Shown in pieces: positions 556-35,212 of a stretch of DNA of 64,000 nt; position 1 is the stretch's first letter; each line of letters begins with the position of its first letter. The stretch spans positions 558,001 through 622,000 of the forward strand of contig NW_027251778.1 in the NCBI RefSeq assembly GCF_044704955.1, given 5' to 3'. A program made the translations under genes and the position numbers. Source of the DNA: Pristiophorus japonicus (taxonomy: Eukaryota). The notes under the pieces were generated by a model that ran no database searches, was not told the DNA's origin, and saw only the letters and a program-made list of their open reading frames with translations.

Positions 556-1081
556 GTGAACCATATTCTGGACACTGTCCCTGCAGAGATAGAACACATA
601 CGGTCAGTGTTTAGAAAATTATTTTACTTGCTTTCCAACTTCTTTAAATTCGTTTTTTTACTATCGTTCTGCCTTTCTATCTCTCTTCATTTTTTCATTC
701 TTTCTTTCCTACTCTTTTACCTGCTTACATTCTTTAATTCTTTCCTTCTGTCTTTCTTTCTATCTCCCTTTCTTTCTATCTCATTTCTCTACGCCCTACT
801 CTATAAAACACATAGTTAAGCTGTAAAGACCTCTGAGAGGTTCACCCCTCAGCCTTCTCTTTTCTGGACACAACAGCCCCAGCCTGTTAAGCTTTTCCTG
901 AAAGGTTGAAGCTCTCAATTCTGGTGTTATCCCTGTTAATCATTCTTTGCCCGTTCTCCAGTGCCTCTACATCAAATTTCTCACTTTAACTCGAACCCGT
1001 CTCTGCTTGTCAAAACCACATTCGCTCTGCAGAATAAACGCGACAGGGCTCACCATCCACAGGTGTTTCCTGCCATGGTGT

Positions 1082-1120
1082 GGTTTGTGTCTAGCCCCTC
1101 CATCTCCCTGAGTCACTGTG
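1082..1120 (-). other. 23-RSS of V1
   Basis: Heptamer CACAGTG (1114-1120), 23-nt spacer, nonamer ACACAAACC (1082-1090). Confidence 0.95.
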
Positions 1121-1769
1121 CAGACTCCAGGTGCAGTAATACACGGCCGCCTGATCCGCCCGCAGGCCGGAGGTCTCCAGATAGAAGTGGCTGTTGTCGG
1201 GTCTCCTGGCCGTGAATCCGTCCACCTCACCGGAGGGAGTGACCGTTCCGGGGACGATGGAGTAGAAAAGGTTCTGAGGCTCCAGGTCAGGATGCCACCG
1301 GTACCAGTAGAAATAGCTAGTTTCTGCTTCTGTGTAAAGGCACTCGATGCTAACCGGAGTGCCCGGGGAATTGGATATGGAAGCGGGGGTCTGTTGGATC
1401 AGCACGGCCCCCACATCTGTAAAACGGAGAAAGAGAGAGAGTTAGAGATAGAGATAAACCGAAGGGGTAATTACATAAAAACACCCGCCATGAAGCGGCA
1501 GAGGAGGGTAGAGAGAGTGAGGGAGAGCGCGGACGAGAGAGACAGAGAGACAGAGCGAGATGGAGAGAGCGAGAGAGGGAGGGAGTGAGACAGCGGAACG
1601 GACAGAGAGAGAGAGAGCGGCAATGACAGAGAGATAATGAGATACAGAGAGAGAGAGATACACCGAGCGACTATCTACACATCACCGGAGGATGAGACTT
1701 GCACATGAGGAGAGAGCGATAGAAATGAGAAAGTGAGATGGACAGAGAGAGAGAGACGGAGACAGAGAC

Positions 1770-1805
<36 letters not shown>

Positions 1806-2184
1806 AGACAAGGGAAATATAAATGGAAAGTCAGGCATTAAGACATAAAGAGAGAGAGTGGGATTGGGAGACAGAGAGAGGGAGACAGACAGACAGAGAA
1901 CACACTATAAACCGAAGGGGAGAGAATCTATAGATTGCCCGCGCTGTGAAGGGACACACGGGGAAATTAAAGTGAGTATCGCTGGGATCTCACCGCTCAG
2001 CTCCACCTTACCCGTTAACACCAGCAACACCAGCCAGAGCTGGGACACAGGGATGAACAGAACGAGCGAGGCAAAGACAGAGAGAGAATGTGACATAGAG
2101 AGAGAGTTAAAGCGAGCAACAATCTACACATCACCGGAGGATGAGAAGGCGCACGAGGAGTGAGGGAAAGAAACAAGAAAGTGA

Positions 2185-2215
<31 letters not shown>

Positions 2216-2474
2216 GGAGAGAGACAGCGAGAGAGAGAGATAGACATAGAAACTGAGAGAGAAAGAGAGAGAGAAAGAGAGAGCACGGCAAAGAGATGGA
2301 AAGAGACAGTCAGACAGAGAACACTCTATAAATCGAGGGGGAGAGAATCGAGACCAGCCCGCGGTGTGAAGGGACACACGGGGAAATTAAAGTGAAGATC
2401 GCTGAGATCTCACAACCCAGCTCCACCTGACCCGTTAACACCAGCAACACAAGCCAGAGCTGGGACACAGGCAT
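1121..2474 (-). CDS. TRBV: TCR V segment V1 (subfamily A, probably TCR beta); apparently functional; leader exon 2432-2474, V exon 1121-1416
   Basis: Leader ATG CCT GTG...ACG G|GTCAG encodes MPVSQLWLVLLVLT (phase 1). Acceptor ttttacag|AT GTG GGG. Open V-set domain GAVLIQQTP...IEC...YWYRW...AVYYCTWSL is followed directly by CACAGTG. Confidence 0.9.
2012..2096 (-). other. Second, intronic copy of the subfamily-A leader exon within V1
   Basis: Copy of the leader with a GTAAG donor. Its ATG position reads ATC, but an in-frame ATG at 2094-2096 gives MSHSLSVFASLVLFIPVSQLWLVLLVLT (85 nt, phase 1). Confidence 0.75.
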
Positions 2475-32621: not shown

Positions 32622-33046
32622 NNNNNNNNNNNNNNNNNNNNNNNNNNNNNNNNNNNNNNNNNNNNNNNNNNNNNNNNNNNNNNNNNNNNNNNNNNNNNNN
32701 NNNNNNNNNNNNNNNNNNNNNNNNNNNNNNNNNNNNNNNNNNNNNNNNNNNNNNNNNNNNNNNNNNNNNNNNNNNNNNNNNNNNNNNNNNNNNNNNNNNN
32801 NNNNNNNNNNNNNNNNNNNNNAGTCAACAGAGANNNNNNNNNNNNNNNNNNNNNNNNNNNNNNNNNNNNNNNNNNNNNNNNNNNNNNNNNNNNNNNNNNN
32901 NNNNNNNNNNNNNNNNNNNNNNNNNNNNNNNNNNNNNNNNNNNNNNNNNNNNNNNNNNNNNNNNNNNNNNNNNNNNNNNNNNNNNNNNNNNNNNNNNNNN
33001 NNNNNNNNNNNNNNNNNNNNACTTATATTTTGTAAACTTCCCTTAC

Positions 33047-33077
33047 GCTGAAACAAGACCATTAACTGATACATCAT
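33047..33077 (-). pseudogene. Orphan subfamily-B leader exon (copy of the V6 leader) with no visible V exon
   Basis: MMYQLMVLFQ C|GTAAGG is identical to 17640-17670 and has its upstream promoter. Downstream there are only N runs and satellite. Confidence 0.8.
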
Positions 33078-33629
33078 TGACTTGAAGTTTTCCCTCAATA
33101 ATGAAAGGAGTGAGAACAGGAGGGGGGAGTGTGTGAGGGCCTCGCCACTCCCTCTCAGATTGACAGAAAAAGCCCCTCCCTCTCTGATTGACAGACAAAG
33201 CCCCTCCCTCCCTCATTGACAGACAAAGCCCCTCCCTCCCTGGTTGACCATGATTGGAAGAGGACAGGTTGCAACAACGTGGCGTGTATTACATTGACTA
33301 CAGGAGATTCGGCGGTGAACTGAATGAGGTTTGTAAACCATTAAAATGTGTTGTTATGGTCGATAGAGAGAATTAATTTCCTCCAGTCGGGGACTCCAGA
33401 AGGAATGGTAAGAGACTTAAAATTAGAATCAGGCCGTTCAGGCATTGCATCAGAAACCACTTCTTCACACAAAGAGTAGTAGGAACTTGGAACTCTCTCC
33501 TCCAAAAGTAGTTAAGCCTCGGCTCAATGTCAGGGTTCAAGACAGAAGTTGGTACAGTTTTGGTTGGGTATGGGCATGATATGGGGCAAAGGAGATAAAT
33601 AATTATCGACCATGATATAACTGGTTGGG

Positions 33630-33810
33630 CAGTAGGTTCGAGGGGCTGAATGGCCTCCTCCTGTTCCTATGTAACAGGCTCGAGGGGCTGAATGGGCCTC
33701 TTCCTGTTCCTGTGTAATAGGCTCGAGGGGCTGACTGGGCCTCCACCTGTTCCTGTGTAACAGGCTCGAGGGGCTGAATGGGCCTAGTCCTCTTTCTTTG
33801 TTCCTATTGT
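33630..33810. repeat. ~43-bp minisatellite, array 5 (short)
   Basis: About 4 copies of the same unit. Confidence 0.8.
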
Positions 33811-34423
33811 GAACTATGTTGTGGGCACTTGTTTGTTTCATGCTCTAGTACGCCCTCCGCTGTCCATGTGAAGAAAGAAAATACACTGTCAGTGTTTAAA
33901 AAAGTATCTTACTTGCATTCCAACCTTCTAAAAATTCGTTCTTTATTTACTATCGTTCTGCCTTTTTATCTTTCTTTTCTCTATCTTCTTGCTGCTCTTT
34001 TTCCTGCTTACAATCTTTCATTCTTGACTTCTGTATTTCTTTCTTCCTTTCTTTCTTTTATTCTTTCTATCTTCCTTTCTGTTTATCTTCCTTTCTTCCT
34101 ATTTTCCTATCTTTCTTTCTTTCTATTTTCCCATGCCCTACTCTATAAAACACATTGTTAATCTGTAAAGACCTCTGACAGGTTCACCCCTCAGCCTTCC
34201 CTTTTCTGGACACAACGGCCCCGGCCTGTTGAGCATTTCCTGATAGTTTGAACCTCTCAAATCTGGTGTTATCCCTGTTAATCTTTCTTTGCACCTTCTC
34301 CAGTGACTCGACACCTAATCTCTCACTTTTAATCTAAAACGCCTCTGCTTGTCAAAAACACATTCGCTCTGCAGAATAAACGCGAGAGGGTTCACCATCC
34401 TCAGGTGCTTCCTGCCATGGTGG

Positions 34424-34462
34424 GGTTTGTGTCGAGTCCCTCCATCTCCCTGAGTCACTGTG
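34424..34462 (-). other. 23-RSS of V9
   Basis: CACAGTG 34456-34462, 23-nt spacer, ACACAAACC 34424-34432. Confidence 0.93.
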
Positions 34463-35212
34463 CAGACTCCAGGCGCAGTAATACACGGCCGCCTGATCCG
34501 CCCGCAGGCCGGAGGACTTCAGGTTGAACTCCTTGTCTTTCATTCTCTCGGCAGTAAAACCGTCCACCAGCAACTCTGGTTCCACGATATTGATGGCTGT
34601 GGAGTAGAACATAAACTGCAAGGCTCCCTCCCCGTGTCCTGTCTGTGCCAGTAAATGTAAGGGTTGCTTGTTCCCTCCACAGTGCATTTCAATTCCACTC
34701 CCTTCCCGGGAAATCTGGAGACAGCGGCCTGGGTCTGCCGGATAGTCTGTGAGCTCACGTCTGGGAAAGAGACAGGGAGATGAGGCGGTCAGTAAACAGC
34801 GANNNNNNNNNNNNNNNNNNNNNNNNNNNNNNNNNNNNNNNNNNNNNNNNNNNNNNNNNNNNNNNNNNNNNNNNNNNNNNNNNNNNNNNNNNNNNNNNNN
34901 NNNNNNNNNNNNNNNNNNNNNNNNNNNNNNNNNNNNNNNNNNNNNNNNNNNNCGAAGATAGAATGGGGAAAGTTGGAAGGAAGTAAGAAGAGAGAAAGAT
35001 GGAAAGAAAGAAAAGAGAGAGCGAGAAAAATGGAAGGAAACAAAGGTGGAGAGAAAGAAAGAGAGAAAGAAAGAATGCAAAAAAGAGGAAAATAGGGAAA
35101 GGAAGAATGAAAGATAGAAAAAAGAAAGAGTGAAGATAACTAAAAAGAATGATTGCTTGAAATAATCGCCCTTACGCTGAATCAATACCATCAGACCCAA
35201 TAACTGATACAT
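34463..35212 (-). pseudogene. TRBV: TCR V pseudogene V9 (subfamily B); leader 35176-35212, V exon 34463-34760
   Basis: A 2-nt insertion near 34620 (exon 298 versus 296 nt) shifts the frame after FR2. WYRQ is changed to WHRQ. Leader and RSS are intact. Confidence 0.87.

What the first reader, a model, noticed from the sequence alone, without database searches (positions are those of the whole stretch)
1030..34520. Two divergent V subfamilies share one almost invariant 3' cassette (FR3 end + RSS + flank)
Subfamily A (V1, V2, V5) and subfamily B (V3, V6-V9) have different leaders, introns and promoters and are very divergent over FR1-CDR2. From TCC GGC CTG CGG GCG GAT CAG GCG GCC GTG TAT TAC TGC GCC TGG AGT CTG onward they match. 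V5 (A) and V7 (B) are identical over these 17 codons including synonymous sites. They differ at only 1 of 23 RSS spacer bases and stay near-identical into the downstream flank. Protein-level selection cannot explain identical silent sites and spacer. Inference: repeated gene conversion or unequal crossover homogenises a shared CDR3-start/RSS module across otherwise unrelated V bodies.
Basis: partly seen in the sequence, partly recalled or inferred. Interest (0 to 1): 0.78.

Follow-up and report, generated by a model that had tools for sequence, protein, structure and literature searches.

The report
Shark TCR genes share swapped ends
Two very different families of shark T-cell-receptor beta gene segments end in nearly the same 113-base stretch (protein end, cut-and-join signal, short flank), most likely because repeated germline recombination at that stretch has swapped and evened it out between the families in this lineage.

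Summary
Observation confirmed, with limits. The window is the outer end of a TCR-beta V array of a shark-like fish. V5 (A) and V7 (B) differ at 0 of 51 coding and 1 of 23 spacer bases; their bodies are 55% alike. Locus-wide (33 A, 37 B) the block is 91% alike between families, the within-family level; ten other family pairs give 52-65%. It is not 'almost invariant' (V6 differs at 8-10 of 51), and the shared part ends about 62 bases past the heptamer start, where two unrelated flanks, X and Y, begin. Flank type is independent of a gene's own family but predicts the next gene (p about 1e-4), so the block looks like the joint between duplicated units. A orthologues in three other shark genera group with A by body but match only 10.6 of 17 end residues, against 14.3 for A-B here. 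A derived flank allele has spread to 31/33 A and 35/37 B. Purifying selection contributes: the older flank allele is also seen in bamboo shark. Verdict: lineage-specific homogenisation by recurrent ectopic recombination, a striking variant of a known process. The scan's notes showed no earlier report of this block.

The parts
1059..1171 (-). shared 113-base block of V1 (family A): last 17 codons, 23-RSS (1082-1120), 23 bases of flank
1121..1416 (-). V1 exon, family A, open frame; leader near 2424-2504
701..1058 (-). flank X after V1 (92% alike to that of V7, family B, over +62..+300)
4263..4375 (-). shared block of V2 (family A), followed by flank Y
4325..4622 (-). V2 exon, family A, frameshift in FR1 (its mirror copy at C1166:152179 is in frame); leader near 5296-5376
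7167..7279 (-). shared block of V3 (family B) with the older AAGG-type flank allele, followed by flank Y
7229..7524 (-). V3 exon, family B, open frame
8904..9245 (-). V4 exon and RSS, another family (internal control; does not share the block)
14123..14235 (-). shared block of V5 (family A), followed by flank X
14185..14483 (-). V5 exon, family A, open frame; leader near 14953-15033
17071..17183 (-). decayed shared block of V6 (family B), followed by flank Y
17133..17428 (-). V6 exon, family B, internal stop
19408..19520 (-). shared block of V7 (family B), followed by flank X
19470..19765 (-). V7 exon, family B, open frame; leader near 19936-19977
22317..22429 (-). shared block of V8 (family B), followed by flank X
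22379..22674 (-). V8 exon, family B, open frame; leader near 23071-23112
34401..34513 (-). shared block of V9 (family B), followed by flank X
34463..34760 (-). V9 exon, family B, frameshift; leader near 35171-35212

Best explanation
The two old TCR-beta V families A and B share one 113-base block (last 17-19 codons, RSS, 23 bases of flank) in this genome, likely because repeated germline unequal crossing-over and gene conversion have used that block, their only long shared homology, as the exchange point. Shown: the block is as alike between families as within them; all four body/flank combinations (A-X, A-Y, B-X, B-Y) are common; flank type goes with the next gene, not with its own gene; five B bodies carry the two A-type bases just 5' of the block; the end differs from that of A orthologues in other sharks. 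Inferred: selection on the FR3 end, RSS and short flank kept an old stretch of homology; A and B genes became interleaved; crossovers inside the block joined a body of one family to the RSS and downstream unit of the other, so that units running from block to block were duplicated and lost, and one version of the block spread through both families. No exchange tract is seen 5' of base -63, where the families are too unlike to pair.
For: Consensus differs at 110 of 237 body sites but 2 of 119 sites from -57 to +61 (24 A, 30 B after dropping mirror partners). Block identity A-B 0.913 vs 0.52-0.65 for ten other family pairs, including E and F, which also alternate in tandem. Own family x flank: A 14X/9Y, B 15X/10Y, p = 1; next gene x flank: next A 3X/10Y, next B 19X/2Y, p = 1.1e-4 (48 genes, mirror pairs collapsed; each arm alone p 0.0004 and 0.002). 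AU rejects A as a clade on the X-flank tree (p 0.004, 45 rows) and the Y-flank tree (p 3e-8, 28 rows). Y carriers are not a clade on the B body tree (p 5e-5) nor on the A body tree (p 4e-4); 5 B genes with A-type -57G/-54A need 4 changes (p 1.4e-6). Seven of 80 genes (3 A, 4 B) are identical over the 113 bases. A bodies group with catshark, bamboo shark and horn shark proteins (98/100), yet end residue 7 is Q in 30/30 A and 27/27 B here and H or K in 4/4 foreign A. The flank allele ACCAT is in 31/33 A and 35/37 B on C1166 but in 2 of 26 B copies of the second locus on C11; the other allele matches bamboo shark read-through, so ACCAT is the derived one. On C11 all 26 B copies score higher with X than with Y and the one A pseudogene found has a Y-like flank.
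Against: The block tree is star-like and does not reject A as a clade (p 0.16) or A+C (p 0.09). Minor alleles shared by A and B are no more common in the block (29 of 117 sites) than at conserved body sites (38 of 127); many are CpG changes (90 of 192 differences fall on 12 CpG sites). On the X-flank tree the A/B label is still clustered (6 changes vs 13.4 in shuffles), and starred branches alone force only one change, so exchange is occasional, not constant. Once the four combinations exist, crossovers within one family can reshuffle flanks, so the number of true A-B events could be small. Within-family conversion in the bodies can also distort the body trees. Cross-species data are proteins only (4 foreign A and 14 foreign B ends; automatic gene models). 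No reads could be checked.
Confidence: 0.8

Rival explanations
1. One or two past fusion events made an A-body/B-end chimera shortly before both families expanded; later shuffling was only ordinary tandem duplication within families.
For: Star-like block tree, A not rejected as a clade on it; no excess of shared polymorphism; A-B block divergence equals within-family divergence.
Against: Needs at least one event before the two loci split (the C11 A pseudogene already has the DQ-type end), one that brought ACCAT into A, one for the fourth flank class, and up to four for the B genes with A-type -57/-54. AU tests reject A clades on both flank trees.
Confidence: 0.12
2. Purifying selection alone keeps the FR3 end, RSS and a flank element the same in both families since their common ancestor.
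For: The older flank allele reads through as the same nine residues in V3 and in a bamboo shark B gene (P0095); horn shark A genes have a related flank; RSSs are generally conserved (PMC2685407, passages seen).
Against: Foreign A orthologues match own A at 10.6 of 17 end residues while own B matches at 14.3; bamboo shark B genes match each other at only 11.4 of 17; a derived flank allele is shared by both families; silent sites and spacer are identical in some A-B pairs; family C, with a body as close to A (58%) as B is, does not share the block (65%).
Confidence: 0.04
3. Germline RAG activity (hybrid or open-and-shut joints) swapped RSS-bearing ends between V genes.
For: Germline-joined Ig genes in sharks and a RAG model for an RSS swap in mammalian VH are recalled from memory (Hassanin et al. 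2000; only the reference was seen).
Against: The A/B border lies 51-63 bases 5' of the heptamer, inside FR3, not at the coding end, and varies between genes; by eye no canonical RSS stands at that border or at the X/Y border; coding ends show no trimming or added bases.
Confidence: 0.02
4. Assembly or polishing artefact that evened out paralogous ends.
For: Reads could not be examined; the window has a near-identical mirror copy in the same contig.
Against: 73 of 80 blocks are distinct sequences with private changes; the pattern holds in both arms and partly in a second contig; mirror copies differ by several bases in the block.
Confidence: 0.02

Closest known systems
RSS swap between mammalian IGHV clans (Hassanin, Golub, Lewis, Wu 2000, PNAS 97:11415; reference seen in PMC12633339; text not held; content recalled)
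   Same: RSS and V coding region have different histories; unequal crossover is a proposed cause.
   Different: As recalled, one old replacement of the RSS. Here the shared part includes 17-19 codons and a flank, covers about 70 genes of two families, is specific to the lineage, and shows both reciprocal products.
Tandem homology units of TRBV loci, e.g. alternating TRBV6/TRBV9 in cattle (PMC2685407, 11 passages seen)
   Same: Two V families alternate and expand as multi-gene units by unequal crossover; TRBV gene conversion is described there as documented but minor beside birth-and-death.
   Different: The passages seen do not place unit borders inside the V gene or report a shared 3' end between the alternating families. 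Families E and F of this locus behave like the cattle case (alternate, block 60% alike); A and B do not.
Concerted evolution of TRBC genes in human, mouse and cattle (PMC2685407, discussion passage)
   Same: Within-species homogenisation of paralogues by gene conversion.
   Different: Whole constant genes of one family, not a short block shared by two divergent V families.
CAWS-ending TRBV group (human beta chain P0038, turtle P0003/P0013; the name TRBV30 is recalled)
   Same: Family B is 46-47% identical in the body to these, ends in CAWS and has a 23-RSS.
   Different: Recalled as a single inverted gene in mammals; here 38 B and 33 A copies on C1166 and 26 B copies on C11.
RSS-adjacent CTCF sites of mouse VH genes and of shark TRBV families (scan notes e1-9837576, e1-9178305, e1-9940879)
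   Same: A conserved non-coding stretch lies right behind the RSS.
   Different: Best match to a recalled 14-letter CTCF consensus is 10/14 in X flanks against 9.6-9.7 in shuffles: no clear site here.

Membership tests
TCR-beta V gene (TRBV) | Ig V-set domain with both cysteines and the FR2 tryptophan | tested here: met
   Pfam V-set above cut-off for V5, V7, V3; alignment
TCR-beta V gene (TRBV) | leader exon, intron, V exon, 3' RSS with 23-base spacer | tested here: met
   (leaders located by script for 7 of 9 genes; V3 and V6 not matched by the pattern)
TCR-beta V gene (TRBV) | linked, co-oriented J segments with 12-RSS and a beta-type constant exon | tested here: met
   J at C1166:446367 (-) and 388-400 kb (+); constant exons at 438 kb (-) and 402 kb (+) match shark beta-type proteins P0027 (68%) and P0020 (46%) and the human TCR beta chain P0038 (32-39%)
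TCR-beta V gene (TRBV) | D segment with 12- and 23-RSS between V and J | tested here: inconclusive
   a strict pattern found no D on C1166; not pursued
TCR-beta V gene (TRBV) | rearranged and expressed with a TRBC | not testable with these tools
Concerted evolution by ectopic recombination | paralogues within a species more alike than orthologues between species | tested here: met
   14.3 vs 10.6 of 17 residues; protein level only
Concerted evolution by ectopic recombination | incongruent trees for neighbouring parts | tested here: met
   the block tree alone is inconclusive (p 0.16)
Concerted evolution by ectopic recombination | all four combinations of markers on either side | tested here: met
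   A-X 19, A-Y 13, B-X 20, B-Y 12 of 71 genes, 7 unclassified
Concerted evolution by ectopic recombination | excess of shared polymorphism inside the tract (frequent short conversion) | tested here: not met
   29/117 vs 38/127
RAG-mediated RSS replacement | breakpoint at a heptamer/coding-end border | tested here: not met
   border 51-63 bases inside FR3
RSS-adjacent CTCF element | strong CTCF motif within about 80 bases of the nonamer | tested here: not met
   recalled IUPAC consensus, not a weight matrix
RSS-adjacent CTCF element | CTCF binding in thymocytes | not testable with these tools
   needs ChIP or CUT&RUN

The most novel reading that the evidence does not exclude
The FR3-end/RSS block is a standing germline swap site: V bodies (promoter, leader, CDR1-2) of two families older than the split of major shark lineages are moved as modules onto one common CDR3-start/RSS/flank unit, the block forms the joint of every duplication unit, and the sweep of one block version through about 70 genes, reaching even two copies in a second TRB locus on another contig, is favoured because it equalises RAG efficiency across the repertoire.
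Probability: 0.25. Interest if true: 0.72.

Novelty: new variant of a known kind. Interest (0 to 1): 0.52.

Why it matters
V genes are usually treated as units that evolve by birth and death, with body and RSS inherited together. Here body, RSS and downstream context have separate histories across some 70 genes, and the joint of the duplication units lies inside the gene. That bears on how V arrays expand, on trees and family names built from whole V exons, and on whether RSS strength is tuned across families. With 33 A and 38 B bodies on nearly one RSS, in two flank contexts and two arms, the locus is a natural test of what sets V usage when the RSS is held constant.

Tried and rejected
CTCF site as the reason for the conserved flank: no match above shuffles. 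Frequent single-site conversion: no excess of shared minor alleles. My first idea that family C shows the ancestral A end and that A took a B end only in this lineage: weakened, because horn shark A genes already have a flank related to the B-type one; the homology is old, only the present version is lineage-specific. Tight A-B identity as a general shark trait: not seen in bamboo shark, where the one A end matches six B ends at 10-13 of 17. RAG-made swap: wrong breakpoint. Exchange further into the body: painting of 89 diagnostic sites showed no tract 5' of -63. Reads and expression: not available. A PDB look-up of the constant exon was not run; its identity rests. D segments: none found with a strict pattern. 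GENECONV/RDP are not installed; tree tests and site painting were used instead. One guess at an exon near 47.6 kb gave no Pfam match and was probably read in the wrong frame. Literature: nine searches listed no paper on a shared 3' block between shark TRBV families; only listings and some passages were read, and most subscription journals are not covered.
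Full report
Setting. The window is G000:C1166:558001-622000. It holds nine V exons with 23-spacer RSSs on the minus strand. Three tested carry a Pfam V-set domain; TCR beta chains are among the PDB hits of V7. I rebuilt C1166:1-622000 and part of C11 from fetched stretches and found 134 V/RSS entries: on C1166 33 A, 38 B, 4 of a related family C and 43 of five other families; on C11:26.32-26.52 Mb 9 B copies and 7 others. 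C1166 has two V clusters facing each other, each followed by J and a constant exon; the constant exons match two shark beta-type proteins and a human TCR beta chain. The closest named relatives of A are horn shark proteins at 72%, so the animal is a shark-like fish (inference).

Observation. V5 (A) and V7 (B) differ at 0 of the last 51 coding bases and 1 of 23 spacer bases; their bodies are 55% alike. A sliding comparison shows A-B identity of 0.32-0.73 in the body and 0.80-0.95 from -57 to +62 relative to the heptamer. Consensus differs at 110 of 237 body sites and 2 of 119 block sites. The 113-base block is 0.913 alike between A and B (33 x 37 genes; one broken B left out), 0.932 within A, 0.901 within B, and 0.52-0.65 for ten other family pairs. 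Control families E and F are 0.89 and 0.93 alike within themselves, so the block is not unusually frozen; what is unusual is that two families share it. V6 differs at 8-10 of 51.

The flank splits. After about +62 there are two unrelated flanks. Of 71 genes: A 19 X, 13 Y, 1 other; B 20 X, 12 Y, 6 other. With mirror pairs collapsed (48 genes), own family and flank are independent (p = 1), whereas the next gene downstream is B after X (19 vs 3) and A after Y (10 vs 2), p = 1.1e-4; each arm alone gives p 0.0004 and 0.002. Adding five genes that I reassigned by eye gives p = 6e-6. Neighbouring genes are related, so these p values are generous. The plain reading is that duplicated units run from block to block. 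V1 (A) is 92% alike to V7 (B) over +62..+300 and 80% to V5 (A).

Trees. On the body tree A is one clade (82/91). On the block tree it needs 13 changes and sits, with most C1166 B genes, in a starred clade of 68; seven genes (3 A, 4 B) are identical; but the AU test does not reject A as a clade there (p 0.16; 80 rows, 4 broken ones left out). A is rejected as a clade on the X-flank tree (p 0.004) and the Y-flank tree (p 3e-8; low-complexity DNA with long branches). Y carriers are scattered on both body trees (p 5e-5 and 4e-4). Five B genes carry the A-type bases at both -57 and -54 and are not a clade (4 changes, p 1.4e-6); no tract reaches further 5' among 89 diagnostic sites. Against frequent conversion: shared minor alleles are not enriched (29/117 vs 38/127), about half of the differences fall on CpG sites, and labels on the X-flank tree are more clustered than in shuffles.

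Other species. Protein searches gave A orthologues from catshark, bamboo shark and horn shark and B-type genes from catshark, two bamboo sharks and two rays. By body the foreign A proteins join own A (98/100). Over the last 17 residues own A matches own B at 14.3, own A at 14.6, and the four foreign A at 10.6; residue 7 is Q in all 30 A and 27 B open exons here and H or K in the four foreign A ('open' was judged on the last 291 bases and so passes V2, which has an FR1 frameshift). In bamboo shark the single A end matches six B ends at 10-13 of 17, so tight sharing is not general. Automatic gene models read through the RSS: one bamboo shark B gene gives the same nine residues after the nonamer as V3. 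The short flank is thus old and constrained, and its AAGG form is ancestral. The derived ACCAT form is in 31/33 A and 35/37 B on C1166 and in 2 of 26 B copies on C11.

Second locus. C11 (about 26.00-26.46 Mb) is a paralogous TRB locus with the same two-armed plan. Its 26 B copies all score higher with flank X than with Y. It has one decayed A-body pseudogene (body 83% to V5) whose end is of the DQ type with B-type bases at -57/-54, the AAGG flank and a Y-like continuation. So A-Y and B-X look ancestral, A-X and B-Y are the reciprocal recombinants, one round of evening-out came before the loci split and another after (inference). The two C11 B genes with the ACCAT allele have C11-type distal flanks, which fits a short conversion between loci, or an old polymorphism.

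Mechanism. Shown: identity profile, four combinations, link of flank to next gene, tree conflicts, lineage-specific end, spread of a derived allele. Inferred: selection kept a short homology at the FR3 end, RSS and flank; interleaving of A and B let misaligned meiotic recombination use it; crossovers and conversions moved bodies across it and spread one version. Not shown: the rate, the number of A-B events, any benefit, any hotspot. A RAG-made swap does not fit the breakpoint. A CTCF site, suggested by scan notes on other shark genomes, was not found above shuffles.

What is known. Multi-gene homology units and some conversion in TRBV loci are described (PMC2685407, 11 passages seen). An RSS swap between mammalian VH clans is reported by Hassanin et al. 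2000 (reference seen in PMC12633339; content recalled). Inverted 3' TRBV genes are common in amniotes (PMC11754216, passages). PMC13433984 (passages) had nothing on this point. Nine searches listed no account of a 3' block shared by two shark TRBV families; no supplements were read and subscription journals are mostly missing. The scan's notes had nothing near this place or like this protein.

Verdict. Real, well supported, a new variant of concerted evolution by ectopic recombination. Interest 0.52.

Noticed in passing
G000:C1166:133-592 kb and G000:C11:26.00-26.46 Mb: Two paralogous TCR-beta loci, each with two facing V-J-C arms and two different constant types, so four TRB constant genes in all. 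No paper on this plan was listed.
   Followed up: partly
window 2050-28718 vs G000:C1166 about 126-154 kb: V2-V8 have mirror copies at the outer end of the opposite arm, in the same order, 91-98% alike over long stretches: a recent inverted duplication or exchange between arms.
   Followed up: partly
G000:C11:26.00-26.46 Mb: Most of the 26 B-family copies are damaged and many have the heptamer changed from CAC to CGC, which would block RAG cutting; the change is shared widely, so it was probably copied.
   Followed up: no
G000:C9:202-224 Mb (L141-L144), C3678 (L145), C1008 (L146): Many orphan B-family V pseudogenes with the block, some with an internal 74-base tandem expansion, repeated over 20 Mb of another chromosome-size contig.
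   Followed up: partly
G000:C1166:159937, 206538, 459962, 473314; C11:26155985: A third CxWS-ending family (C) with its own RSS spacer and flank; 1 of 4 copies on C1166 is in frame.
   Followed up: partly
G000:C1166:306-375 kb: Families E (20) and F (10) alternate in a young tandem array and do not share their ends.
   Followed up: partly
window 1980-2060 and 2400-2505: V1 has a second, partial copy of the leader exon and adjoining intron inside its intron (sequence).
   Followed up: no
window 1059-1066 and the same place in each block: The shared part ends just after CACCTG, an E-box-like word preceded by an ETS-like GGAA word (motif names recalled); no test of binding.
   Followed up: no
window 45490-49490, minus strand: Short exon-like stretches between satellites, possibly a gene bordering the locus; one trial translation gave nothing.
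   Followed up: partly
window 29157-32618, 38712-44734, 54298-64000: Long satellites with 26-, 55- and 23-base units mark the end of the V array; a 43-base minisatellite lies in several X-type spacers.
   Followed up: no
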